This document shows, piece by piece, positions 3,534 to 38,377 of a DNA stretch of 41,316 bases (position 1 is its first letter; each line of letters begins with the position of its first letter). Location of the stretch: UHGV virus genome UHGV-0262680. One strand, given 5' to 3'. The notes beneath the pieces are model-generated. The model was not told where the DNA came from. It saw only the letters and a program-made list of their open reading frames with translations, and did no database searches. The position numbers and the translations under genes are program-made. The DNA is from a virus.

Positions 3534-4226
3534 TTAAAACAACGAGCCAAGCAGACCAAGACCGCCGCCGATCGCAGCCCCCCACGGAGTGGATGAACCA
3601 ATTAATTTCGCAAGTCCAGCCCCAGCAATAGCACCAGACGCACCTCCGCCAATAGCAGATTGCATTGCTGATGGTCTGTTGGCATTTGCCGCTGCAAGAG
3701 CCGCACTTTGCTGAGAAATCTGACTCATGTTGTTGGCATATGTCTGCCCGGCGTTTGCCTGACCTTGCAGTGCGCCAAGACCAACATTTGCCAGATTCTG
3801 GTAGTTGTTCATCTGACCAGATAGCCATTGCTGACCAAGCGTTGGTGCGATTGTTGCTAACTGATTACTGGTTGCGGTGGAACCCAATCCACCTGTTGCT
3901 TCCGCTGCAGCCAGACTCTGATAGCGAGCCTGACCTGCAAGGTCTTTATACTGCTGAGAGTTGTAATACTGGTTAAGCGCCTGACCTTGCCCCTCCAGAG
4001 ACGATAAGTTCTCGAGGCTGCCGACATACTTCTCAGCCAGAGGAGTAAACGGTTTCAGGTTGTTCATGATGGTGTTGAACTGCTGATTTTGCAGGTCTGC
4101 GGCATACTTCTGAGCTTCTGCTGCATACTTTGCGCTTTTATCAGAGCTGCCACCTTTCCCGCCTTTTTCATGGCAATAAGGTTCCTCGCCGCGCAGTTTT
4201 CTGCCCAGCTTAAATGCATATAACAT
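3534..4226 (-). CDS. P22 gp7-like ejection protein, 230 aa
   Basis: ATG at 4226-4224 with a GGGAGA ribosome-binding site that now lies 24 bp from the Mu right end. Size and position match P22 gene 7. Confidence 0.6.
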   Translation of the reverse strand: MLYAFKLGRKLRGEEPYCHEKGGKGGSSDKSAKYAAEAQKYAADLQNQQFNTIMNNLKPFTPLAEKYVGSLENLSSLEGQGQALNQYYNSQQYKDLAGQARYQSLAAAEATGGLGSTATSNQLATIAPTLGQQWLSGQMNNYQNLANVGLGALQGQANAGQTYANNMSQISQQSAALAAANANRPSAMQSAIGGGASGAIAGAGLAKLIGSSTPWGAAIGGGLGLLGSLF

Positions 4227-4245: not shown

Positions 4246-4250
4246 GGAAT
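4246..4250. repeat. 5-bp target-site duplication GGAAT (left copy)
   Basis: GGAAT immediately outside the Mu right end is repeated at 37939-37943 immediately outside the Mu left end; Mu transposition makes 5-bp duplications. Confidence 0.85.
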
Positions 4251-4330
4251 TGAAGCGGCGCACGAAAAACGCGAAAACGTTTCACGATAAATGCGAAAAC
4301 TTTAATTTTCGTGCTTCAAACGAAACAGCG
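4251..4330. promoter_or_regulatory. Mu right end (attR) with repeated CGAAAA-type transposase-binding motifs
   Basis: Matches the recalled Mu R-end sequence; the motifs CACGAAAAACGCGAAAACG, TTTCACGATAAATGCGAAAAC and TTTTCGTGCTTCAAACGAAA fit R1-R3-type MuA sites. Confidence 0.6.
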
Positions 4331-4350
4331 GCATTAACCGCTGTTTTTTT
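4325..4350 (+). terminator. Intrinsic-terminator-like hairpin with T-run at the Mu right end
   Basis: ACAGCGG-CATTAAC-CGCTGT followed by TTTTTTT on the plus strand, between the mom stop and the element end. Confidence 0.4.
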
Positions 4351-4365
4351 ATTCATAACGTGGGG

Positions 4366-5103
4366 TCACTTCGGGTATGGCTGAACCCTGAATAGTTTGG
4401 TGTTTAGGCGTTTTCTTGCGCGCTTGTTCAGGAACCTGATGTAGCGATATTGATTAAATTTGTGTACCACTGCCCGTTCCTTATTAGCCCGCAAATACTC
4501 GCCTCGTTGACCTCCGCGCTTAATCGCGTTCATCGCTATCTCGTGATACCACTCGCCGTCCAGTTCGTAGAATGTGCTTTCATGGCTGCCAATAAAATCA
4601 AAATTCGACGCCTGATATGCCACGCCAGCACGCCCGCAGCGTTCGTCTGCAAAGGACTGAACCCACTCCACTGACGGATACAGTAACCTGATGGTTTTCA
4701 GCGCGTAGCTGATGGCCCGTGATTCAGAATTGCGGGGCATGTCGTCGTGTAACCACATGCGGTTCAGTTCCATGTAACCCCGGTTATCTGTTTCAAGCAC
4801 GACACGACGCCCTGAGTTGGGATTAAGGGCATATCCCCACTGAAGAACGCCAACCAGATCACGTCCGCTGAATACGCCCAGATGCAGGTAGGAGTTATTC
4901 ACAAAACGGCGGGAATAATGCTTTGTCTGAATGATTGTGCGGGCCAGCCAGCAGGATATGGTTTCAACGCGCAACTCCTTTGAACCATAGCCGACAATCC
5001 GGCCTTCATACTCAATAACGCAGGGTTTTGTCAGAATGCGTGATTTCTTCTCTTTTCCCACAATACAGCTCCGTGGGATGCTCTTTGGCATTCGATATGA
5101 CAA
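4366..5103 (-). CDS. mom: Mom DNA-modification protein
   Basis: Last gene before the right end and overlaps the 3' end of com, as in Mu. The track start at 5103 is TTG; the first ATG is at 5091 (MPKSIPRS...). Confidence 0.65.
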
Positions 5104-5197
5104 TGTAACGTTTACAGCGAGGGCATTTAATTTCTATATGCTTAAAACCTCCTTTAAACAGTAACTTATTGCAGTTTTTACAGCGAACAGAGTCCAT
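5012..5197 (-). CDS. com: Com zinc-finger translational activator of mom, 61 aa
   Basis: ATG at 5197 after AGGGGGAA gives [61 protein letters not shown], carrying the CKNC...CPRC zinc-finger pattern of Mu Com. Confidence 0.8.
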
Positions 5198-5270
5198 GAT
5201 TCCCCCTGTGTAATAACCAGATACGACCACCCGGAGGGCTGGGGATATTTAACCACACATGATGTAAAAC

Positions 5271-5298
5271 GACGATCGATATGATGGTATCGATCGTC
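5271..5298. promoter_or_regulatory. Perfect 11-bp inverted repeat with two GATC sites upstream of com-mom
   Basis: GACGATCGATA-TGATGG-TATCGATCGTC; the GATC sites are at 5274-5277 and 5292-5295, about 75-100 bp upstream of the com ATG. Confidence 0.45.
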
Positions 5299-5337
5299 AT
5301 AATCTATACAAAACGCTTAATTATTAACCTTTTTGAG

Positions 5338-5808
5338 TCAGCTTTCTGCGGCACTCTGAGAAAGAGGCTCTGCTATCAGGGACAGCAGTCTCTCTGTCTG
5401 TTTTCTGTTTTCGAGGGTAATTGCGCAATCCCGTTTCACCTCCTCTGCATATAATCTGACACTTTCCGCACTTTTTTGTATCTGCATTGCAATCTCTTCG
5501 AACTTTTTAAGAGATTCAGGGCGCAAATCTGCATCTGTCACCGACAAAAAATCGTTAAGCGAACCGTCCTGTGAATCTTCATAAACGCGAATGATGCCGA
5601 TTTCTGAAAGGCGCTGTGCGCTCTGTGTCAGGCGAACACTGTACACGCCCGGCAGAACGGGGAAGTCGTACTCCCCGCTCTGTGTAGTGACGTGGCTGAA
5701 AACACCTTTCAGAATCCCTGCACGGTTGTGCAGGGAGGTCAGCGTGATGGTTGTGCCGCCCAGCGGTTCTCCTGTGGGCGTTTTAATCACACCTTTAAGC
5801 TGCGGCAT
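5338..5808 (-). CDS. Truncated lambda-Stf-like side-tail-fibre N-terminal domain ORF, about 156 aa (likely gene remnant)
   Basis: From the ATG at 5808: MPQLKGVIKTPTGEPL...IRVYEDSQDGSLNDFL..., resembling the lambda Stf N-terminus (MAVKISGVLKDGTGKP...ITVYEDSQPGTLNDFL). It stops before any fibre shaft or tip and overlaps the end of the tfa gene by 14 bp. Confidence 0.55.
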   Translation of the reverse strand: MPQLKGVIKTPTGEPLGGTTITLTSLHNRAGILKGVFSHVTTQSGEYDFPVLPGVYSVRLTQSAQRLSEIGIIRVYEDSQDGSLNDFLSVTDADLRPESLKKFEEIAMQIQKSAESVRLYAEEVKRDCAITLENRKQTERLLSLIAEPLSQSAAES

Positions 5809-6325
5809 CGGGATGCTCCGGCCAGCTGATGGCATTAAGGGAGGCTTCATCAGTAACGGCGCTTAAATCCAGCGCTTTTACCGCTTTGATATACGCCATC
5901 CACTGCGCAAGACGAGCTTTGTCGTCATCACTGATGACGCCCAGCTCCAGCTCGGTTTTCCAGTCGGAGGTGATGTCCTTTGCTTCAGTCAGCAGATGCT
6001 GGCGTTGTTTTTCTGCCAGTTGCGAATAATCAACAGGAACCGGCAGCACTTCGCCGTCTTTGTAATACCAACTGGCTTCAATGCCAAAGCCTTCCGGCAG
6101 TTCATCAACTTCCACAATGGTGAAGCCTGCCGGATAAAGACGGGACACGTCTTCTGCCATTGAATAAATCACGCCGCTTTCAGGGTGAATGCACAATTTG
6201 TATCTCTTCGTGAATTTGTCCATGGATTCATAAAAATCCTGGCCGTCTTCACTGCGGAAATACTGAATGTTTTCACCATAAGGCATCTCTTTCGGGTAAT
6301 AACGCGTGACGTTTCTGAGTTCCAT
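5795..6325 (-). CDS. Tail-fibre assembly protein (Mu U / Tfa-like), 176 aa
   Basis: ATG at 6325 preceded by TAAGGAG; starts MELRNVTRYYP, the typical Tfa N-terminus, and sits directly downstream of the fibre gene. Confidence 0.7.
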   Translation of the reverse strand: MELRNVTRYYPKEMPYGENIQYFRSEDGQDFYESMDKFTKRYKLCIHPESGVIYSMAEDVSRLYPAGFTIVEVDELPEGFGIEASWYYKDGEVLPVPVDYSQLAEKQRQHLLTEAKDITSDWKTELELGVISDDDKARLAQWMAYIKAVKALDLSAVTDEASLNAISWPEHPDAAA

Positions 6326-6339
6326 TATTTTCTCCTTAA

Positions 6340-7149
6340 TTAGCCGGATACCGTGCGCCATCCGCCATTGATATAAATCTGAGTTTGTTTGTAATACACG
6401 CCGCCGATGTTATCCGCAGAGCTCTTGCCAGTTTCCTGAACGTTAATACCTGACAAAATACAACCTGAAGGCGCGCGAAATACCCAGGAAATTTCGTTAC
6501 CACCGGGATTGTGAAACACTTCGCTGGTATACCTGAAATCACGTACTGCACCAGAATCGGTGCTGCTGATAGTGATATCGCTACTGCCATCAAACAGCAC
6601 ATTGTTAATCCTGCGGGCCGTCTGAAGCCGGGTTGCCGTTCCGGCGTTGCCGCTGATGTTGTTGATGGTGATATCCGAAGTCAGGGGCATGTTGTTGACC
6701 CTGCGGGTATTCGGTACGGCACGACTGGCTTTATCTACCGTGTCACGTAACGAAAGCGCATCTATAAATTCACCGGCCGTGGTTTTGCCAAGAATACCGC
6801 GCACAAACGCACTGAGTGGCGTTAATGACATTGTGTCTTCGCCCGTAAAATACGGGAACGTATTACTCTGACCGGTTAATCCGGCAATAGCCCCAGCTGA
6901 ACCACTGTTAGTGATAAACAGCTTTTTCAGCGCCGTCATAATCTGGTTGGTCGTGTTTTTGTCCGGTTTGATATTTGCCTGCCGGAGAATTTCCAGCATT
7001 TCGGACTGCACGATATTAAACCAGTCCGGCCCCGGATACGTGGGTGGAATACCGTTCCCTCCTTCGGTGAAATAAAGCGTCGTTTTACTGTATTCAGCCG
7101 CGACGGGCGGCATAACCGGCACGCCAGTATTATTATCAATGTGAAACAT
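6340..7149 (-). CDS. Tail-fibre protein (Mu S-like N-terminus), 269 aa
   Basis: MFHIDNNTGV...PPVAAEY N-terminus of Mu/P1 S-type fibres and a conserved FPYFTGEDTMSLTPLSAFVRGILG motif comparable to P2 H/lambda Stf; AGGAG ribosome-binding site. Confidence 0.7.
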   Translation of the reverse strand: MFHIDNNTGVPVMPPVAAEYSKTTLYFTEGGNGIPPTYPGPDWFNIVQSEMLEILRQANIKPDKNTTNQIMTALKKLFITNSGSAGAIAGLTGQSNTFPYFTGEDTMSLTPLSAFVRGILGKTTAGEFIDALSLRDTVDKASRAVPNTRRVNNMPLTSDITINNISGNAGTATRLQTARRINNVLFDGSSDITISSTDSGAVRDFRYTSEVFHNPGGNEISWVFRAPSGCILSGINVQETGKSSADNIGGVYYKQTQIYINGGWRTVSG

Positions 7150-7191
7150 ATCTGATTATTTCTCCTGATATTGTGTATACAGAGATATTTA

Positions 7192-8250
7192 TTATTCAGT
7201 AGCGCTCCTTGCCTGATTAAACAACTCCGCTGTAAAAGTCAGCTCACCCTTAGCGAAGGGAGTGTTCCCTCCTGGTTGAGTCATAAAACTCTGTGAGACA
7301 GTCGTCCAGCTGTTTGTGTCGCTTTGTACGCCATTCTCTGTAATCGTTGCGCCTGCATGGCTGCCATTTTTCACTTTCCAGGCCAGGCGGTTATTGGGGG
7401 CATCAGCACCGCGGTAAGTGACCGAGGCCATAACGGCCACAACATCACTGTTGCTGTTATCCACCGCACCAAACGTGGCCTGTGCGGCATTCAGGGACGG
7501 CGAGAGCATCAGATATCCGGCCTCGCTGTCAGAGGTGTTCAGCCCCGTGACAATATCTTTATTCAGTGAGTTTTTGGCGCTTCCACCGGTAAATGCCGTT
7601 ACCGGGCTGTATCTGACCTCAATGCTTCCGAGCAGGGCGGGTTCTGCACTATTATTTCTACCGTATGTCACTGTTCCACAGTACATATCACCCAGCATTA
7701 ACGTGCCGGATGCACCCGATGAAAAAATATTGTTACCACCACCAATACTCACCTGAATTTTGTCAGTCCGGTCATCTGGTACATAAAACGATGTATTTCC
7801 AACTAATGAGCGGTTGCAGTACAGACTGGCTGAGACATAGCCGTTTTCGTTTCGCGTTGCGAAAATTTCATAGTAATAACTGGCTGCTTCATCAGGATAC
7901 GGGGTTGTAAATGAATAGCCATTAATCCTGATGTGGGATGGCGAAGATGAATATTTCTTTCCCGCACTTAATGTCAGACGAAATCCCAGCTGTACAGCTG
8001 AGGATTTTAAGTCCGGAAGTGTGCTGTACAGTGTGACATATGAGGGTGTCGTAAAAATCAGCCCCGTTCTTTCTACAGTATTTACGGCCTGAGTGCCACG
8101 ACAGACGGATGTTACAGAACCGGACATATCATTGATAAGCGTGACACCGTTTTCGTTCAGTGCTGAAATAATATTTGTTGAATAATAGTTCTCGCACAAT
8201 CCCTCATTCGCCGGAATTTGTCGAAAACTTTCGAGTTTAATAATATTCAA
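7192..8250 (-). CDS. Hypothetical Ser/Thr/Gly/Asn-rich virion protein, 352 aa, probable TTG start
   Basis: Long ORF between the gp48-like baseplate gene and the fibre gene; AAGGAG lies 7 nt upstream of the TTG at 8250. No family recognised from memory. Confidence 0.45.
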   Translation of the reverse strand: MNIIKLESFRQIPANEGLCENYYSTNIISALNENGVTLINDMSGSVTSVCRGTQAVNTVERTGLIFTTPSYVTLYSTLPDLKSSAVQLGFRLTLSAGKKYSSSPSHIRINGYSFTTPYPDEAASYYYEIFATRNENGYVSASLYCNRSLVGNTSFYVPDDRTDKIQVSIGGGNNIFSSGASGTLMLGDMYCGTVTYGRNNSAEPALLGSIEVRYSPVTAFTGGSAKNSLNKDIVTGLNTSDSEAGYLMLSPSLNAAQATFGAVDNSNSDVVAVMASVTYRGADAPNNRLAWKVKNGSHAGATITENGVQSDTNSWTTVSQSFMTQPGGNTPFAKGELTFTAELFNQARSATE

Positions 8251-8273
8251 AGCGGCTCTCCTTTTATTTTATG

Positions 8274-9248
8274 TCATTCGGACGTGACCACAGCAAAATG
8301 CAGTCCCGGGTGATTAATCAATAACGGTTCACGGGTTCTGCTGGCTGTCTGCAACTGCATACTGTTAACCGGTACGGGGGAGCGGGTCCTGTATCCCGTC
8401 TGCAACTGTGCGCTGTTCATGGTCATGGGGTCCGTTGTCGGCAGACCTGAGTGCAATTGCGCCCTGCTGAGTACCAGTGGTTCTGCCGTCGGACGGGCGG
8501 CATAAAAGTTAATCCGGTTAATTGTCAGCGGCTTACCTGTCAGTGCCGGAACAAGTGCAAAATGCAGCCCTGCACAGTTAACCGTTAACGGTTCTTCTGG
8601 TTTATATCCGGCCTGAATCTGTATGCGATTAACGGATAATGGCGGACCGGACACAGCCTCATCGTTACCATCGGTGTAAAAAAACTCATACCCTGTTCCA
8701 CCCATGCGGTAATTTTTCAGGAGACATTCCAGCTCGCGGGTGCGTCCGCTGATTAATGGTGTCATGACATCATCAACACAGGTAAAACGCCCGGCGTCGC
8801 TGTCCTGAACCTCCACTTTCAGCAGCCAGCGATACCGCGCCGGATGCAGCGGGTACATGCAGTCGCGCAGGCAGTGATGCGGCAGAACGGCCGTCACCTT
8901 GATGGTGAAGCCCAGCGCCGCAGCAGCGGCTTCAATCTGCCAGGTTGCCAGCCCACCCTTGCGGCGGTATTTCTCCACCACGGCACGACGGCGGGCTTCC
9001 GTTGTGGTGGCGGCAATTCCGCATTCCGGCAGCGCCAGATACTGCTCCCACTCCGGCAGCAGCTGGAGCGTGGTTTCCGGGCGCATCTCCACATGCAGAC
9101 GCGAGGCGTCGTATTCAATGCGGGTTAAACGCGCTGCAAGCGCCCTTAAAAAACGGTTTAAATCCGCGTCGTTATCACGCGGCCATGCTTTACCCCGTGG
9201 CATGACCTGTTGCAGTGCGGTCAGCCATTCCGTCACGCTGTGAGCCAT
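8274..9248 (-). CDS. Baseplate protein (Mu gp48 / P2 gpI-like) with a C-terminal tandem-repeat extension, 324 aa
   Basis: The N-terminal ~200 aa resemble the small baseplate protein family; the C-terminus carries seven ~17-aa repeats of the form P-L-x-(V/I)-N-x-x-x-L. Confidence 0.55.
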   Translation of the reverse strand: MAHSVTEWLTALQQVMPRGKAWPRDNDADLNRFLRALAARLTRIEYDASRLHVEMRPETTLQLLPEWEQYLALPECGIAATTTEARRRAVVEKYRRKGGLATWQIEAAAAALGFTIKVTAVLPHHCLRDCMYPLHPARYRWLLKVEVQDSDAGRFTCVDDVMTPLISGRTRELECLLKNYRMGGTGYEFFYTDGNDEAVSGPPLSVNRIQIQAGYKPEEPLTVNCAGLHFALVPALTGKPLTINRINFYAARPTAEPLVLSRAQLHSGLPTTDPMTMNSAQLQTGYRTRSPVPVNSMQLQTASRTREPLLINHPGLHFAVVTSE

Positions 9249-10309
9249 GTCACCTCCCCGATGGTGATAAGCTCATCCACATCACTGGTGGTGTCTTCCC
9301 CGATGTTGAGAAAGTAATCTGTAATGCCGGATGTCATACCGATGGCCGTGCGCAGCGAGGACACCGGCAGCATCTGACCAGGGGCCAGCGTTTTCTGTAA
9401 TGCGGTCAGGTTTGCCCGGACGGCGTTCCTGTTCGCCTGGCCGTCCGGTGTCAGACGGATGGACAGGTCGACTTTCTTCAGCCTGACCTGAACCGGCCAG
9501 ACCTCAATGCCGCCCGGTTTGCCCACCATAACCCCAGTGGCCGGGTGTTTGTGGCAGAACAGATACTGCTCCATTGTCTTCAGGTCTTTGCGGGTCGGTA
9601 CAATATCTTCACGGTCATCGTAAAGCCATGCCAGTCCGACCGTGCCGGGGCCGTGCCACGCATCCCACGCCCACGCGCGGCTGACGCCAGCCACTTCGCG
9701 AGCCCAGATGACGTAATCATGCAGAGCACCGCCCACCGGGGGATTGCGACGCACATACAGCAGACGGTCCAGCAGCTCCGCGATGGATTCAGTGTCTGCG
9801 CCACCGGTGATGCCACCTTCAGCCACCACGCCTGCACTGGCCGTTCCGGGCAGCGGAGATAACAGGGTCAGCACGGCACCGGCAGCAAGATTACCCGCCA
9901 CCCCGGCTTCTTCAGCCTGCACAATGACGGTGACCTCGCCGTCCCGTACCTCACCGGATGTGAGCACCTGGTACACCTGATTCGTGTCGGACTGCATCCG
10001 TGTTTCAGCCGGAAGGAGAGACTGACTGGTGAAGGTCACCGGCCCGCTGGCAAAGGTGGCCTGTTTGCGGATAACCCCTTCATACGTTGCTGTTTTGATA
10101 ATGGTTTCATCATCAGACGTGGCGGACGGGATTATCTGGTCCTTAATCCAGCTCTGATGGTCGTATAAATCCCGGACCTGACTGCTGAATGACACGTTCA
10201 GCGCTTGCTCAACACTGACAGGCGGCAGCTTTTGCAGGCCGAGTTCATACGCAATATCTTTTTCGCCGTCGGCAATCAGTTTGCCCAGCGTGGGGATTTC
10301 ATACGGCAT
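9233..10309 (-). CDS. Baseplate J-like protein (Mu gp47-like), 358 aa
   Basis: Size and position in the baseplate block; ATG at 10309. Confidence 0.65.
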   Translation of the reverse strand: MPYEIPTLGKLIADGEKDIAYELGLQKLPPVSVEQALNVSFSSQVRDLYDHQSWIKDQIIPSATSDDETIIKTATYEGVIRKQATFASGPVTFTSQSLLPAETRMQSDTNQVYQVLTSGEVRDGEVTVIVQAEEAGVAGNLAAGAVLTLLSPLPGTASAGVVAEGGITGGADTESIAELLDRLLYVRRNPPVGGALHDYVIWAREVAGVSRAWAWDAWHGPGTVGLAWLYDDREDIVPTRKDLKTMEQYLFCHKHPATGVMVGKPGGIEVWPVQVRLKKVDLSIRLTPDGQANRNAVRANLTALQKTLAPGQMLPVSSLRTAIGMTSGITDYFLNIGEDTTSDVDELITIGEVTWLTA

Positions 10310-10751
10310 TAATGGTGGCCTCCCATCGACGGGTGATTTCGATTGTGAGCGTGGTTTTGTCCGGGCGGGTTAACACCACCTGAAAGGCAATACAGTCAGG
10401 GACGATGATTCTGGCCGTGACAGTGGCGTTACGGGCGTAACCGGCCCGCAGCAGCGGTTGCATGGACAGCCGTGCGTAATCTTCCACGCGCAGGCGGACA
10501 TCTTCCGTCAGCTTTTCACGCTCAAGCAGCCACAGGCGGGAACCCCACGAAAAATCGCTGTATGTGTCGCCCGGCCAGCCACGCGGGTCGCCGGAACCAT
10601 CAGGGATGACATCATCGTCATCAGCGCGGGCATCGGTGAAAAGGCAGATAAGAACCTGAGTGACCAGCCCCTCATCCCGTGAGAGGCCGTTATGGGTGAC
10701 GGTGATGTCACCCCGTGAGAGCATGTTATTCCAGCGGATTCCTGTCGTCAT
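10299..10751 (-). CDS. Baseplate protein (Mu gp46-like), 150 aa
   Basis: Position and size in the Mu baseplate order. Confidence 0.55.
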   Translation of the reverse strand: MTTGIRWNNMLSRGDITVTHNGLSRDEGLVTQVLICLFTDARADDDDVIPDGSGDPRGWPGDTYSDFSWGSRLWLLEREKLTEDVRLRVEDYARLSMQPLLRAGYARNATVTARIIVPDCIAFQVVLTRPDKTTLTIEITRRWEATINAV

Positions 10752-11284
10752 ACGGGCGGTGATGTCTTCTCATTGTCGCCGTCCTTATGAATATGATTGC
10801 TGAAAGATTTACCGTTGATGGTGACATCTTCAGTAAATTCACAGGGACCGACGAATTTCATTTGTTTACCGATAATATTCAGCAATTCGTCGGCGGTGAG
10901 ATTTACCGTTGTCCCTGAAACGTCTAATTGTTCCCCTGTTATTTCAATAACGCCGTTTTCCTTCAGGGTGATGTGTGATTTTCCGTCCCGGTGATACAGC
11001 CGGACGTCGCCGGGAGACAGGCCTTTAGGGCGACATCGCTTGTCCTCCACTGCGATGGCAACCAGCCCGTCACGCCGTCCGCCAACGGCCAGCACTATGG
11101 CTTCTGAACCTTCCGGCGGAACGGAAGTAAAACCGTAATTCTGGAAGCGTTCCACGTCGTCATCGGTGGCATCTGCCAGCGTCTGGATTTGCAGGTTCTG
11201 CCGCTCCAGACTGTCAGACACCATGCGGACAATGGCACGGTCAACCATCAGCCGCAGACGGCGGGTAATTGCGCTTAATCCCAT
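10748..11284 (-). CDS. Baseplate spike/assembly protein (Mu gp45 / gpV-like), 178 aa
   Basis: Position and size; start and stop overlap the neighbouring genes. Confidence 0.55.
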   Translation of the reverse strand: MGLSAITRRLRLMVDRAIVRMVSDSLERQNLQIQTLADATDDDVERFQNYGFTSVPPEGSEAIVLAVGGRRDGLVAIAVEDKRCRPKGLSPGDVRLYHRDGKSHITLKENGVIEITGEQLDVSGTTVNLTADELLNIIGKQMKFVGPCEFTEDVTINGKSFSNHIHKDGDNEKTSPPV

Positions 11285-12348
11285 GTGACCACCGCTTTTG
11301 CTGATTTCTTCGTTTTCACTTTCATTTCCGGCATGTCCAGTGATTCAGGCGGAACCAGCGCCAGAACCGTTATCCGCCCCTGTGCACCATCCGTCCAGGT
11401 CACCCCGGATATCAACCAGGTGGTTTTCAGGTTCTGAATACTGTCGTCGATATCAACAAGGCGGTTGGTCTGCCACAGCGGGCCGCTGTCGCCCTGTTCG
11501 CGCCAGCCTGCCACCGTGATTTCCGTCGTGCGGGCCTCTCCCAGCATCCGGGCTTTGAACCATTCCCCGCGAATGCTGGCTCCACCCACGGTCAGACTGT
11601 CTTCATTGACCAGAATGCGCGGGCGGTAACGGTTAATTTCCGGGTCTTCGGTGATGTACTGGCGACCGCCCACCATCGAGGCAGGCTGGCTGTCCCACAG
11701 TTTGCCACCGGCACTGGTGGTGCCCTTGATGATGTACTGACTGTTACGCTCCCGCCAGCTGAAGCGCCCACGGGCGGCGAGGATATTTTTTCCCAGCACC
11801 AGTGAGACACCTGCGCGAACGGAAGAGGCGCGGGTGATAATCAGGTTACCCCCTCCGTCAGACGTCAGCAGAACGCCGCGCTGTTTTGCCAGCCGGTCGA
11901 GCAGTTCAAAGCCCGTTTCACCCTGTTCCAGAACGACAGACGCAAACGCCTCCCCGGTCGGGGTTTCCGTGATGACGGTTATCCCGAACGGGCGGCAGAC
12001 ATCAGCCGCCACCTGTTCAAGCCGCACGCCTTTCCATTTCCCGGACGAATGCACCACAGAGCAGTCCACCAGGTCACCGGTTTTGTCGCGCCCCATGACG
12101 CGAATCTCCACGTTTTCTGCGTCATAGCTGGGAATAAAATCATCGATATACCCCGTCAGCACGGTATCCGCGCCCAGCCTGACCGTGCAGGGTTGCCCCT
12201 CACGAATCACGCGCGGTGCCGCCGCTGACCAGCGGGTTGTCACACTGAGATCAAACTCACCGGCAATCGCCTTCAGGGAACGACTGACGGACATTTCCGT
12301 CCAGCCTTCCCACAATTTGCCGTCAACGGTAAGAATCACGGAGCCCAT
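11275..12348 (-). CDS. Baseplate hub protein (Mu gp44-like), 357 aa
   Basis: Position between the P-like gene and the baseplate genes. Confidence 0.55.
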   Translation of the reverse strand: MGSVILTVDGKLWEGWTEMSVSRSLKAIAGEFDLSVTTRWSAAAPRVIREGQPCTVRLGADTVLTGYIDDFIPSYDAENVEIRVMGRDKTGDLVDCSVVHSSGKWKGVRLEQVAADVCRPFGITVITETPTGEAFASVVLEQGETGFELLDRLAKQRGVLLTSDGGGNLIITRASSVRAGVSLVLGKNILAARGRFSWRERNSQYIIKGTTSAGGKLWDSQPASMVGGRQYITEDPEINRYRPRILVNEDSLTVGGASIRGEWFKARMLGEARTTEITVAGWREQGDSGPLWQTNRLVDIDDSIQNLKTTWLISGVTWTDGAQGRITVLALVPPESLDMPEMKVKTKKSAKAVVTWD

Positions 12349-15478: not shown

Positions 15479-15564
15479 GCTGTTTCTCCAGTTGCTTTAT
15501 CAGGCGGAACAGCTGCCGCAGGGGCAGCTGTTCCAGGTACTGAATACTGAATCTCTGGGACAGG

Positions 15565-17803: not shown

Positions 17804-18003
17804 TATTTTTTCCCTCTGGTTTTGTTGTTATTTTTCGGAAGTGTGGTTATTTCCACATCTCCCTCGGCTTCACGGCGCAGCCAGTAAGCGCAGACATCGA
17901 GACGTTCCCCTTCCGGGGATAAATGCGCGCCATCCGGTTTACGGACACGAACGCTTTCCCGCGCTGGCTTAATCAGTTTCTGTTCCATCGTCACCCCGTA
18001 CAT
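17803..18003 (-). CDS. Small hypothetical protein, 66 aa
   Basis: ATG at 18003; lies between the head-completion genes and the sheath gene. Confidence 0.35.
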   Translation of the reverse strand: MYGVTMEQKLIKPARESVRVRKPDGAHLSPEGERLDVCAYWLRREAEGDVEITTLPKNNNKTRGKK

Positions 18004-19867: not shown

Positions 19868-19945
19868 GACTCTGCCTTTTAAAAGGCAGTTAAAAGGGCA
19901 TTCACAGCGCCTTTTAACTGCGGGTTACAGATTACGGATGACGGG

Positions 19946-21850: not shown

Positions 21851-21890
21851 GGAAGGCAGAAAAAAAGCCGGATTTACCGGCTTCACTGAA
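21851..21890 (-). promoter_or_regulatory. Conserved 40-bp dyad-plus-T-run element, copy 1 (late-promoter or terminator candidate), 41 bp upstream of the I ATG
   Basis: Minus strand TTCAGTGAAGCCGGTAAATCCGGCTTTTTTTCTGCCTTCC; nearly identical to 29411-29450. Confidence 0.5.
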
Positions 21891-29410: not shown

Positions 29411-29450
29411 CCGGAGGCATAAAAAAAGCCGGATTTACCGGCTTCATTGA
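29411..29450 (-). promoter_or_regulatory. Conserved 40-bp dyad-plus-T-run element, copy 2, 46 bp upstream of the endolysin ATG
   Basis: Minus strand TTCAATGAAGCCGGTAAATCCGGCTTTTTTTATGCCTCCGG; nearly identical to copy 1. Confidence 0.5.
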
Positions 29451-29464
29451 ATTAAAAAAGATGA

Positions 29465-29944
29465 CTACTCATCACCTTTGATGGAGCAATCTATCATCAT
29501 ATTTTTCCCCATAGGGAGAAACTTTGTCTGAATGTGAAAGCCCAGAATCTTATACGTTAGTCCGTAACCTTTAACTTTTGCTGCGGAAGCCACCATGTCA
29601 ATAACTCGTTCCTGCTGTTCTTCAGTTAATTGACCAATTACAGATTCAACAACCCGCGAACATGCAGCAAAGGAGGGCAGAGCGCCTACAGGATTATCAT
29701 CAAAATCTTTTACAGTCGTCGTTGAACTAACGACCTTATTATTAATCATAAACAATCCAAACTTGCTGTGAGCAGTTTCGGTTCCACCGTTCTTAATTGA
29801 ATCGCCCCCTTTAAGAGGCTTCCAGCTATTTAGTGCAATGAGGTCTTTTTCGGCCAGGCGTTTTTTGATTACCTCTTCAGAGGGCAGCTTTGCCGCATTA
29901 GCGCAAAATACGCTCAGTAAAAACATAAGAGGAAAGTATTTCAT
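29465..29944 (-). CDS. Secreted (signal-peptide) protein of unknown function, 159 aa; lower-GC accessory gene coupled to mor
   Basis: N-terminus MKYFPLMFLLSVFCANA is signal-peptide-like. Its ATG overlaps the mor stop in an ATGA junction at 29941-29944, and it is visibly AT-richer than the flanking genes. Confidence 0.55.
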   Translation of the reverse strand: MKYFPLMFLLSVFCANAAKLPSEEVIKKRLAEKDLIALNSWKPLKGGDSIKNGGTETAHSKFGLFMINNKVVSSTTTVKDFDDNPVGALPSFAACSRVVESVIGQLTEEQQERVIDMVASAAKVKGYGLTYKILGFHIQTKFLPMGKNMMIDCSIKGDE

Positions 29945-30351
29945 GGCTCATCCTTAAATAGTTGCATTTGATATTTTCCACGCTCCAGCCTTCGCATTCT
30001 TTTGATGGCCTGATATACCGTTTTGTAGGTCACTTTGTAACGCTGCACCAACTCTGCTACGTTTTTTCCATCAAAATCACGCCAGATGCGCATGTCTCTG
30101 ATCATATTTTCCAGTATTTTCCCTTTCGGAACATATACCTGAATCCCTCCGATATGATTGCAAATTGCCACTACCAGCTCAAGAGAGTGGGCAGGGTTAA
30201 CACCAAGCCTTATCAGTTCCTGTCGCAGCAGAGCATTCAGCTCTGAAAGTAGCGCCGGGTAAACATATTTTTCCTGATAATCGTGAAGATATTCCAGAAC
30301 ACTGTCGTCCCGGAAGTCTTCGAATAAATCCTGCTCTTTCATCTGTTTCAT
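29941..30351 (-). CDS. mor: Mor middle-operon transcription activator, 136 aa
   Basis: ...ALLSELNALLRQELIRLGVNPAHSLELVVAICNHIGGIQVYVP...IRDMRIWRDFDGKNVAELVQRYKVTYKTVYQAIKRMRRL aligns along its length with Mu Mor as recalled. Confidence 0.8.
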   Translation of the reverse strand: MKQMKEQDLFEDFRDDSVLEYLHDYQEKYVYPALLSELNALLRQELIRLGVNPAHSLELVVAICNHIGGIQVYVPKGKILENMIRDMRIWRDFDGKNVAELVQRYKVTYKTVYQAIKRMRRLERGKYQMQLFKDEP

Positions 30352-36889: not shown

Positions 36890-37074
36890 TTCATGTAATC
36901 CTTTCAGATTCCCCCGTGAGCTACGCTATAAAGTAGCTCACGGCATATCGTGCAATGTAGTGTGGAATCACTTTCAAATCAATAGTGATTTGATAGGATT
37001 TGCCACAATTTTGCATAACGGCATGATTTTTATATGAATTTATTTTATCTCTATTGAAATCACTAGGATTTTAA
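36890..37074. promoter_or_regulatory. Divergent early/repressor promoter-operator region between ner and c
   Basis: 185-bp AT-rich intergenic region between divergent genes; contains the inverted repeats GTGAGCTAC-N8-GTAGCTCAC and AATCACT-N11-AGTGATT. Confidence 0.6.
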
Positions 37075-37599: not shown

Positions 37600-37938
37600 C
37601 AACCAGGTAATGGCTAAGACATAAACTTCACTCCAGGTTATTACATATGTAAGATACCCAAACAGTGATGATTGTTTTTGACACACAGCACTTGCTGAAA
37701 GCCTGGTTGTTACCGTTTTTGAAGCATTTTTGAAGCTGTACTTGAAATGATGCGTGAAGTAATTGCTTTTCGTGTCTTTAATGAATCAAAAGCTGTTTCC
37801 AACAATCTTTCGCGTTTCAAGATGTAACGGCTAAAATCTATCCTACAGGCTTGCAAGCCCCACTAAATCTAATCCCGCCAAATCCCGAATAATCCAATGT
37901 CCTCCCGGTTTTTTTCGTACTTCACGTGAATCAATACA
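37600..37938. promoter_or_regulatory. Mu left end (attL) with transposase-binding sites
   Basis: Terminal sequence rc TGTATTGATTCACGTGAAGTACGAAAAAAACCGGGAGGACATTGG..., with further TGAAGC/TTTCG-type repeats inward. Confidence 0.65.
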
Positions 37939-38377
37939 GGAATTCGATTAGTTCTTCGCGTGTAGCACTGTAAAAAGTCACGTCATCCACGCCTTTGAAG
38001 TATTTCTTGATGGTTCCTACACGCTTAAGGCCAATCATTGCGCAGTACATCTGCCCGTGGCGGAATTTGCGTGCAGCGAACGATGTGACGCACTGAACGG
38101 TGGTGTTAGTCAGAATGTATCGCCAGAACGCCAGACCGATTTCCTTGCTGAATCCACGAACCTCTGGCAGGTACATGGCGTGGCAATCGAATGTCAGCGG
38201 CTGAATCTCCTGATAGTAAACAATGCCGCCGAACTGCCCGTGCACGCTCACCTCAAAGTAACGGCATTCAGGTTTGTAGTCGTATCCATCGCCGTTGTTG
38301 CTCCCGGCGATAATGTCAGGGTGATTTCCGACTGCTTCTATCAGGTCGATGTTTCGCGTTGGTTTGAATGTAATCAT
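37931..38377 (-). CDS. P22 gene-14-like protein, C-terminus altered by the Mu insertion
   Basis: The ORF reads from host DNA into the Mu left end, ending ...ELIEFLY. Joining the flanks across one GGAAT copy restores ...ELIEFLNHGR-stop. Confidence 0.55.
   Translation of the reverse strand: MITFKPTRNIDLIEAVGNHPDIIAGSNNGDGYDYKPECRYFEVSVHGQFGGIVYYQEIQPLTFDCHAMYLPEVRGFSKEIGLAFWRYILTNTTVQCVTSFAARKFRHGQMYCAMIGLKRVGTIKKYFKGVDDVTFYSATREELIEFLY
37939..37943. repeat. 5-bp target-site duplication GGAAT (right copy)
   Basis: Identical to 4246-4250. Confidence 0.85.

What the first reader, a model, noticed from the sequence alone, without database searches (positions are those of the whole stretch)
5231..5337. 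Perfect 11-bp inverted repeat carrying two Dam (GATC) sites upstream of com-mom
GACGATCGATA-N6-TATCGATCGTC lies about 75-100 bp upstream of com. In Mu, mom transcription is controlled by the methylation state of GATC sites within an upstream OxyR-binding region. The palindrome here may be the equivalent epigenetic switch, but with a different, perfectly symmetric architecture.
Basis: partly seen in the sequence, partly recalled or inferred. Interest (0 to 1): 0.5.

Follow-up and report, generated by a model that had tools for sequence, protein, structure and literature searches.

The report
Two-GATC Dam/OxyR-type operator upstream of com-mom
The palindrome is real and is the counterpart, in a Mu-like prophage of E. 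coli, of the well-known Dam-methylation/OxyR control site in front of phage Mu's mom gene, with two methylation sites instead of three, so it is a minor variant of a known switch rather than a new one.

Summary
GACGATCGATA (5271-5281) and TATCGATCGTC (5288-5298) form a perfect inverted repeat with a 6-nt spacer. The GATC sites at 5274 and 5292 lie 74-101 bp upstream of the com ATG (5197, minus strand).

The window holds a complete Mu-like transposable prophage (4251-37938, 5-bp target duplication GGAAT) inserted in a P22-like prophage.

From a shared TATAG, the region aligns without gaps to Mu's Pmom upstream region (28/37 identical). It has the same ATAG-N8-GATC and the same 18-bp GATC1-GATC2 spacing. 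Mu's third GATC is CATC here.

In 77 com-mom loci (47 distinct upstream regions), all but one have a GATC pair 18-19 bp apart. That pair is flanked C-GATC...GATC-G in 45 of 46. E. coli agn43, the classic Dam/OxyR switch, has the same geometry.

In the 22 distinct sequences of this window's class the arms are almost invariant (1/22 variable columns). The spacer (3/6) and the rest of the region (40/86) vary.

The best reading is a homologue of Mu's Dam-sensitive OxyR operator. This is not shown by experiment. The downstream OxyR half-site is weak (5/10), and no C-activator gene is present. The "different architecture" claim is overstated.

The parts
5198..5337 (-). 140-bp intergenic region between the last tail-fibre-module gene (5338-5850) and com. 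It holds the whole regulatory region.
5288..5298 (.). com-distal arm of the palindrome (plus strand TATCGATCGTC). It carries the GATC equivalent to Mu GATC1 at 5292-5295.
5271..5281 (.). com-proximal arm of the palindrome (plus strand GACGATCGATA). It carries the GATC equivalent to Mu GATC2 at 5274-5277.
5282..5287 (.). 6-nt spacer (com-sense CCATCA). It varies among relatives (ACCATC, AACATC, AGCATC, ATCATC, AGAATC, ACAATC when the last arm base is included).
5293..5307 (-). OxyR-like half-site 1, ATAGATTATGACGAT. It matches 8/10 of ATAGnTnnnAnCTAT, and its inner element CGAT overlaps GATC1.
5262..5276 (-). OxyR-like half-site 2, ATCGTCGTTTTACAT (5/10, weak), 31 bp centre-to-centre from half-site 1. 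Its inner element ATCG overlaps GATC2.
5261..5264 (-). CATC at the exact position of Mu's third GATC, so the Dam site is absent here.
5239..5248 (-). ATATCCCCAG, in register with Mu Pmom ATAACCACAC and resembling the ATAACCCC box of Mu late promoters. This is a tentative activator box.
5218..5223 (-). TATCTG, a tentative -10 hexamer. The promoter is not mapped, and most relatives have TGTCTG here.
   Evidence: inference
5012..5197 (-). com (61 codons, zinc-finger translational activator of mom).
4366..5091 (-). mom (241 codons, Mom family DNA-modification enzyme). It overlaps the 3' end of com.
29941..30351 (-). The only Mor/C-family activator gene in the prophage (59% identical to Mu Mor, 32% to Mu C). 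It is a candidate activator of the mom promoter, by inference only.

Best explanation
The palindrome is the core of a Dam-methylation-sensitive repressor site. It is homologous to 'region I' upstream of phage Mu's mom promoter, and it sits in a Mu-like prophage of E. coli that lacks gin and the C gene. The proposed mechanism is inferred from Mu and agn43. Host OxyR, in its reduced tetrameric form, binds two half-sites whose centres are 31 bp apart (5307-5293 and 5276-5262). The inner recognition elements, CGAT and ATCG, are the two GATC sites, and the palindrome centre coincides with the centre of this extended site. When both GATCs are fully methylated by host Dam, OxyR cannot bind, and the downstream activator-dependent promoter can fire late in lytic growth. 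On unmethylated DNA, and by analogy with Mu on hemimethylated DNA just after replication, OxyR binds and blocks transcription of com-mom. This limits expression of the toxic Mom enzyme. What is shown here: the sequence, its position, its colinearity with Mu, and its conservation. What is inferred: OxyR binding, methylation sensitivity, the promoter position, and the identity of the activator.
For: 1. The element lies directly upstream of a com-mom operon 87.5% identical to Mu's, in a complete Mu-like prophage with Mu-type ends and a 5-bp target duplication.
2. The ungapped alignment with Mu from TATAG gives 28/37 identical bases. Both have ATAG-N8-GATC, both have an 18-bp GATC1-GATC2 spacing, and both have 29 bp from GATC2 to the ATA(A/T)CC box.
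3. All 47 distinct upstream regions from 77 com-mom loci keep at least two GATCs. GATC1-GATC2 spacing is 18 bp, or 19 bp in two lineages and 31 bp in one. GATC2-GATC3 spacing is 13 bp when a third site is present.
4. C precedes GATC1 and G follows GATC2 in 45 of 46 regions. Dam does not need these bases. They turn the sites into CGAT and ATCG, each matching 3/4 of OxyR's CTAT and ATAG elements (consensus from PMC2909390).
5. E. coli agn43, whose OxyR binding is blocked by GATC methylation (PMC2909390; PMC4872104), has ATAG-N8-GATC, spacings of 19 and 13 bp, and a 10/11 dyad. Its half-sites score 8/10 and 8/10 and are 32 bp apart. Cota et al. call that distance canonical for reduced OxyR (PMC4856963).
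6. In the 22 distinct sequences of the window's class, 1 of 22 arm columns varies, against 3 of 6 spacer columns and 40 of 86 other columns from GTATAG to the com ATG (Fisher p = 1.5e-4).
7. In IMG/VR, 19 of 27 exact matches to GATCGATA-N6-TATCGATC lie beside com-mom.
8. The host is E. coli, with a 100% match in strain NCCP 13717 and 22 other complete genomes. E. coli has Dam and OxyR (established knowledge).
Against: There is no experiment on this sequence. The downstream half-site matches only 5/10 of the OxyR consensus, against 7/10 in Mu and 8/10 in agn43. The combined score of 13/20 is not distinctive: at the 31-bp spacing 16 scan positions in the window reach it, which is 8 sites including this one, each counted on both strands. 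Motif matching alone is therefore not evidence. Mu's third GATC is missing. From memory of Sun and Hattman (1996), which could not be read here, the reduced-OxyR footprint in Mu covers that site, so affinity and methylation sensitivity could differ. One distant locus (L075) keeps a 10/11 dyad with two GATCs but has poor outer OxyR elements (4/10 and 3/10). That would also fit a different dimeric binder. The prophage has no C homologue, and the mom promoter lacks the Mor-type dyad found at two other promoters in the prophage. The activation step therefore has no identified factor.
Confidence: 0.7

Rival explanations
1. The palindrome is the operator of a different dimeric DNA-binding protein, from the phage or the host, and not of OxyR. 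That protein would read the perfect dyad GACGATCGATA-N6-TATCGATCGTC, with or without sensitivity to methylation.
For: The dyad is perfect (11/11) and much stronger than OxyR sites need. The outer OxyR element on the com side is degenerate (half-site 5/10). L075 keeps a 10/11 dyad without OxyR-like flanks. The OxyR consensus score is not above the window background.
Against: The site is colinear with the Mu region that the literature describes as the Dam/OxyR control region. agn43, an OxyR site, has the same ATAG-N8-GATC and the same spacing pattern. The central 6 nt vary freely, which fits two separated half-sites better than a compact dimer site. No candidate regulator gene lies next to com-mom.
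Confidence: 0.12
2. The inverted repeat acts as an RNA hairpin, an intrinsic terminator or attenuator for read-through transcripts from the upstream tail-fibre genes. This would insulate com-mom from late tail transcription.
For: On the com-sense strand the RNA forms a 13-pair stem. The 61-nt segment folds at -20 kcal/mol, with z = -3.1 against shuffles. In this window GUUUUAC follows the stem.
Against: The terminator scan does not call it, because there are only 4 U. Most members of the class have GGTTTG after the stem, so the U-run is not conserved. No compensatory changes are seen in the arms: the single change, in L019, simply breaks the outer pair. Mu and other lineages have much weaker hairpins but keep the GATC geometry. 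There is no Rfam match. A minor accessory role in this sub-lineage is not excluded.
Confidence: 0.08
3. It is a chance or neutral palindrome with no function. It arises because CGATCG and ATCGAT are each self-complementary.
For: Each arm is built from overlapping self-complementary hexamers, which makes an inverted repeat easier to form. Four GATC pairs within 35 bp of each other occur in the window.
Against: None of 100 shuffles gives a match. The arms are conserved while the spacer and the flanks vary (p = 1.5e-4). A GATC pair at 18-19 bp spacing is kept in 46 of 47 distinct upstream regions, including lineages with only 74-85% Mom identity and unrelated flanks.
Confidence: 0.03

Closest known systems
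Phage Mu Pmom upstream 'region I': three Dam (GATC) sites inside the OxyR (MomR) binding site (Bolker and Kahmann 1989; Hattman and Sun 1997; cited in PMC3378877 and PMC2909390)
   Same: It occupies the same place, directly upstream of the activator-dependent promoter of com-mom. It has the same TATAG start, the same ATAG-N8-GATC, the same 18-bp GATC1-GATC2 spacing and the same distance to the ATA(A/T)CC box. 28 of 37 bases are identical without gaps. The GATCs lie at about -84 and -66 if the tentative +1 is right, against -87 and -69 in Mu.
   Different: There are two GATCs, not three: Mu's AGATCG is ACATCA here. The dyad is 11/11 instead of 8/11. The com-side half-site scores 5/10 instead of 7/10. 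The leader is about 8 nt shorter. The upstream gene is a tail-fibre gene rather than gin. The phage has no C gene.
E. coli agn43 (flu) Dam/OxyR phase-variation operator
   Same: It has ATAG-N8-GATC, GATC spacings of 19 and 13 bp, a 10/11 dyad around GATC-I and GATC-II, the shared string TATCGATCGT, and half-sites 32 bp apart. GATC methylation abrogates OxyR binding there (PMC2909390).
   Different: agn43 has three GATCs and two strong half-sites (8/10 each). It is a chromosomal phase-variable gene and needs no phage activator. Whether mom expression phase-varies is unknown (PMC2909390).
Salmonella gtr (P22) and opvAB Dam/OxyR switches
   Same: GATC sites are embedded in OxyR half-sites with the spacing typical of reduced OxyR, and methylation blocks binding (PMC2909390; PMC4856963).
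   Different: Those systems use three or four half-sites and two alternative OxyR positions to give ON and OFF states. Here there is a single site with one GATC per half-site.

Membership tests
Mu-type mom Dam/OxyR operator (region I) | Lies immediately upstream of the promoter of a com-mom operon in a Mu-like transposable phage | tested here: met
   com-mom is 87.5% identical to Mu's. Mu-type ends and a 5-bp target duplication are present. Mu A, B, Gam, GemA and Mor homologues are present.
Mu-type mom Dam/OxyR operator (region I) | Sequence homology and colinearity with Mu region I | tested here: met
   The ungapped alignment gives 28/37 identical bases from TATAG and 47/80 overall. MAFFT gives the same register.
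Mu-type mom Dam/OxyR operator (region I) | GATC1 and GATC2 are 18 bp apart and flanked as C-GATC...GATC-G | tested here: met
   The flanks are C and G in 45 of 46 distinct regions.
Mu-type mom Dam/OxyR operator (region I) | A third GATC 13 bp downstream of GATC2 | tested here: not met
   CATC occupies 5264-5261 on the minus strand. Three other lineages (L005, L049, L075) also lack the third site.
Mu-type mom Dam/OxyR operator (region I) | Two OxyR half-sites (ATAGnTnnnAnCTAT) at the spacing used by reduced OxyR | tested here: inconclusive
   The half-sites score 8/10 and 5/10 and are 31 bp apart. The total of 13/20 is reached at 7 other sites in the window.
Mu-type mom Dam/OxyR operator (region I) | OxyR binds unmethylated DNA but not fully methylated DNA | not testable with these tools
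   This needs EMSA or footprinting.
Mu-type mom Dam/OxyR operator (region I) | Transcription of mom depends on host Dam, and that dependence is relieved by an oxyR mutation | not testable with these tools
   This needs reporter assays in dam and oxyR hosts.
Rho-independent terminator | A G+C-rich hairpin followed by a run of at least 5 U | tested here: not met
   The hairpin is present. Only 4 U follow it and the scan does not call it. The U-run is absent in most relatives.
Known RNA families (Rfam 15) | Match to a covariance model | tested here: not met
   There is no match at E <= 1 in 4950-5450.

The most novel reading that the evidence does not exclude
In this lineage the operator may have been reduced to a perfectly symmetric two-GATC site with only one good outer OxyR element. 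It might then no longer work as in Mu. One possibility is that another dimeric, methylation-sensitive protein reads it. Another is that it binds OxyR in a way that makes com-mom expression heritably bistable (phase-variable) in lysogens, as at agn43, rather than merely Dam-gated during lytic growth.
Probability: 0.1. Interest if true: 0.5.

Novelty: new member of a known kind. Interest (0 to 1): 0.25.

Why it matters
This is a natural two-GATC version of a textbook epigenetic control site. It occurs in prophages found in 23 of 5,426 complete E. coli genomes, and no isolated phage in the phage collection matched this stretch. It offers a ready-made test of how many Dam sites, and which OxyR contacts, are needed for methylation-sensitive repression. 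At Mu's GATC3 position nature has the same GATC-to-CATC change that experimenters introduce. The comparison also shows that the conserved core of the mom operator is C-GATC-N14/15-GATC-G, and that this core shares its geometry with agn43. None of this changes the current picture of mom regulation.

Tried and rejected
- **blastn against isolated phages.** A blastn search of 5150-5900 against 50,697 phage records found nothing. Homology to Mu upstream of com is visible only in a direct alignment.
- **OxyR consensus as a discriminator.** Scoring against the consensus was rejected as evidence because 13/20 is not above the window background.
- **Plus-strand sigma-70-like match.** TCGATA-16-CATAAT (5276-5303) lies inside the palindrome, but one match against 1.4 expected is chance level.
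- **An inverted Mu C-box.** TAACCACAC lies on the plus strand at 5250-5258. It was considered and not pursued, because the same-orientation ungapped alignment explains the region and an exact AATAACCACAC at 17841-17851 is at chance level.
- **A second Mor/C-family (C) gene.** None was found by tblastn or Pfam.
- **A shared late-promoter motif with the mom promoter.** TTAAATATCCCCAGCCC is unique in the window. Of the five ATAWCCCC matches, only the one in the mom promoter lies in an intergenic region.
- **Primary papers.** Bolker and Kahmann 1989, Hattman and Sun 1997, Wallecha 2002 and Kaminska 2010 are not held in the library. Footprint limits and the roles of single GATCs rest on memory and are marked as such.
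- **Genome-collection scan.** The single-protein Mom query returned only 4 loci. The viral and metagenome scans supplied the rest.

Full report
**1. Observation**

The sequence contains GACGATCGATA at 5271-5281 and TATCGATCGTC at 5288-5298. This is a perfect 11-nt inverted repeat with a 6-nt spacer. Each arm carries one GATC, at 5274 and 5292, 18 bp apart.

None of 100 dinucleotide-preserving shuffles gave a match, even with three mismatches. The window has only four perfect short-spacer inverted repeats of 11 nt or more, and all four are intergenic.

com (5197 to 5012) and mom (5091 to 4366) are on the minus strand. The palindrome therefore lies 74-101 bp upstream of the com ATG, in a 140-bp intergenic region.

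**2. Context**

Window 4300-5187 is 87.5% identical to com-mom of phage Mu. The megablast match stops 10 bp inside com.

The window is a complete Mu-like transposable prophage. The Mu right-end sequence TGAAGCGGCGCACGAAAAACGCG starts at 4251. The Mu left end...GTGAATCAATACA, finishes at 37938. Both are flanked by the 5-bp duplication GGAAT. Transposase A-sized and B-sized ORFs, a repressor with the Mu DNA-binding domain, and Gam, GemA and Mor are present.

The prophage sits inside a P22-like prophage, between ORFs resembling gp7 and gp14. It lacks gin and the invertible G segment. The gene upstream of com is a tail-fibre-module gene.

The same region occurs in 23 of 5,426 complete E. coli genomes. 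No isolated phage in the phage collection matches the stretch upstream of com by blastn.

**3. Comparison with Mu**

I read both regions on the com-sense strand and anchored them at a shared TATAG. They then align without any gap:

- Window: TATAGATTATGACGATCGATACCATCATATCGATCGTCGTTTTACATCA
- Mu: TATAGAAAACGACGATCGAATCAATTAAATCGATCGGTAATACAGATCG

28 of the first 37 bases are identical, and MAFFT finds the same register. Both sequences have ATAG-N8-GATC. Both have GATC1 and GATC2 18 bp apart. Both have 29 bp from GATC2 to an ATA(A/T)CC box (ATAACCAC in Mu, ATATCCCC here).

Mu's third GATC (AGATCG) reads ACATCA in the window. GATC-to-CATC is the change experimenters use to remove a Dam site without altering the OxyR consensus (PMC2909390; PMC4856963).

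I placed Mu's +1 from the published -58 to +20 Ptin7 fragment. That puts the Mu GATCs at -87, -69 and -56. With a tentative -10 of TATCTG (5223-5218), the window's GATCs would lie at about -84 and -66.

**4. Conservation**

Scans with Mom as the query returned 80 related loci. Adding Mu, two E. coli loci and the window itself, 77 have a recognisable com, with 47 distinct 150-nt upstream regions. Every one has at least two GATCs upstream of com.

GATC1-GATC2 spacing is 18 bp, except for 19 bp in two lineages and 31 bp in one. When a third site exists it is always 13 bp further on.

There are two large classes:

- The Mu class has Com starting MKSIRCKN and GATCs at -109, -91 and -78 from the com ATG.
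- The window's class has Com starting MDSVRCKN and GATCs at -98 and -80 only.

Three further lineages (L005, L049, L075) also have only two GATCs. L049 even has GATCGATA-N6-TATCGATC within otherwise unrelated flanks.

C precedes GATC1 and G follows GATC2 in 45 of 46 regions.

Within the 22 distinct sequences of the window's class, the variable columns are distributed as follows (Fisher p = 1.5e-4):

| Segment | Variable columns |
|---|---|
| Palindrome arms | 1 of 22 |
| Spacer | 3 of 6 |
| Rest, from GTATAG to the com ATG | 40 of 86 |

Similarity between the classes, and between members with different upstream genes, begins about 10 bp before TATAG. The conserved cassette therefore starts at this site.

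In IMG/VR, 19 of 27 exact occurrences of GATCGATA-N6-TATCGATC lie beside com-mom. The other 8 have no com or mom and look like chance matches.

**5. What reads the site**

The literature says mom transcription in Mu is governed by Dam and OxyR acting upstream of the C-dependent promoter (PMC3378877; PMC2909390). The OxyR dimer consensus is ATAGnTnnnAnCTAT. The reduced tetramer uses half-sites about 32 bp apart (PMC4856963).

On that geometry the window gives ATAGATTATGACGAT (8/10) and ATCGTCGTTTTACAT (5/10), 31 bp apart. Mu gives 7/10 and 7/10. The inner elements of the two half-sites are CGAT and ATCG, which are the two GATC sites together with their conserved C and G flanks. The centre of the palindrome is exactly the centre of this extended site. 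The freely varying spacer corresponds to the helical turn that reduced OxyR does not contact.

E. coli agn43 was read from K-12. It has ATAG-N8-GATC, GATC spacings of 19 and 13 bp, a 10/11 dyad, and half-sites of 8/10 and 8/10 that are 32 bp apart. The GATC geometry of mom operators thus matches that of an OxyR site whose binding is known to be blocked by methylation.

Two cautions apply. First, the 13/20 consensus score is also reached at 7 other sites in the window, so it carries no weight alone. Second, the com-side half-site is weak in this class.

**6. Mechanism proposed**

The mechanism is inferred from Mu and agn43. Full Dam methylation of both GATCs keeps OxyR off. Unmethylated DNA lets OxyR bind and block the com-mom promoter. 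By analogy with the title finding of Hattman and Sun 1997 (listed), hemimethylated DNA may do the same.

The activating step is unclear. The prophage has one Mor/C-family gene, which is 59% identical to Mor and 32% identical to C. Mor-type dyads (AAGCCGGTAAATCCGGCTT) occur upstream of the lysis and head genes but not upstream of com. The promoter itself is not mapped.

**7. Rivals**

- **Terminator hairpin.** The RNA folds well (-20 kcal/mol, z = -3.1). However, the U-run is short, is not called by the scan, and is not conserved. The arms show no compensatory changes.
- **A different dimeric binder.** This is not excluded. It is suggested by the perfect dyad, by the weak outer element, and by L075, which keeps the dyad without OxyR-like flanks.
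- **Chance.** This is excluded by the conservation.
- **A known RNA family.** There is no Rfam match.

**8. Verdict**

The register and spacings are those of Mu, and the dyad is a family trait that agn43 shares. What is new is a natural two-GATC member with a sharpened dyad, in a Mu-like phage without gin or C. Interest is modest.

Noticed in passing
window 4246-4250, 4251-37938, 37939-37943: A complete Mu-like transposable prophage (33,688 bp) has Mu-type ends and a 5-bp target-site duplication GGAAT. It is inserted inside a P22-like prophage, between a gp7-like ORF (3534-4226) and a gp14-like ORF (37931-38377), so it is a prophage within a prophage.
   Followed up: partly
whole window; 5296-12248: GATC is strongly depleted: 62 observed against 152 expected from shuffles or 188 from a Markov model. 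No GATC occurs for about 7 kb after the operator. The two operator sites are retained against this depletion.
   Followed up: partly
window 29941-30351; 21865-21883; 29426-29444: The prophage has only one Mor/C-family activator, a Mor orthologue, and no C gene. Two copies of the dyad AAGCCGGTAAATCCGGCTT sit upstream of the lysis and head gene blocks; each is also a terminator-like hairpin. They match Mu's middle promoter (AAGCCGGTTAATCCGGCTT). The mom promoter lacks this dyad, so its activator is unknown.
   Followed up: partly
window 15506-15534, 19886-19921, 36914-36943: Three other perfect inverted repeats of 11-12 nt with short spacers are present, all intergenic. The last lies in the repressor / early-operator region.
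   Followed up: no
L085 (E. coli K-12 2071305-2071360, agn43 regulatory region): agn43 and the mom operators share ATAG-N8-GATC, GATC spacings of 18-19 and 13 bp, and a dyad around the first two GATCs. I did not find this correspondence spelled out in the papers I could read.
   Followed up: partly
L002 (E. coli plasmid pPS1T_138kb, NZ_CP180608.1 24511-25270): A remnant of the same cassette sits on a 138-kb plasmid among IS66 and IS21 elements. It comprises the operator with intact palindrome arms, com and a truncated mom.
   Followed up: no
window 5214-5226 and 5250-5262: A direct repeat on the com-sense strand, TCGTATCTGGTTA and TCATGTGTGGTTA, 36 bp apart, brackets the ATATCCCCAGCCCTCCGGG core of the putative promoter. 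On the plus strand the second copy contains TAACCACAC, identical to part of Mu's C-binding region but in the opposite orientation.
   Followed up: partly
window 5338-6361: There is no gin invertase and no invertible G segment. The tail-fibre end of the prophage is a short ORF with a lambda-type 'prophage tail fibre N-terminal' domain plus a tail-fibre assembly gene.
   Followed up: no
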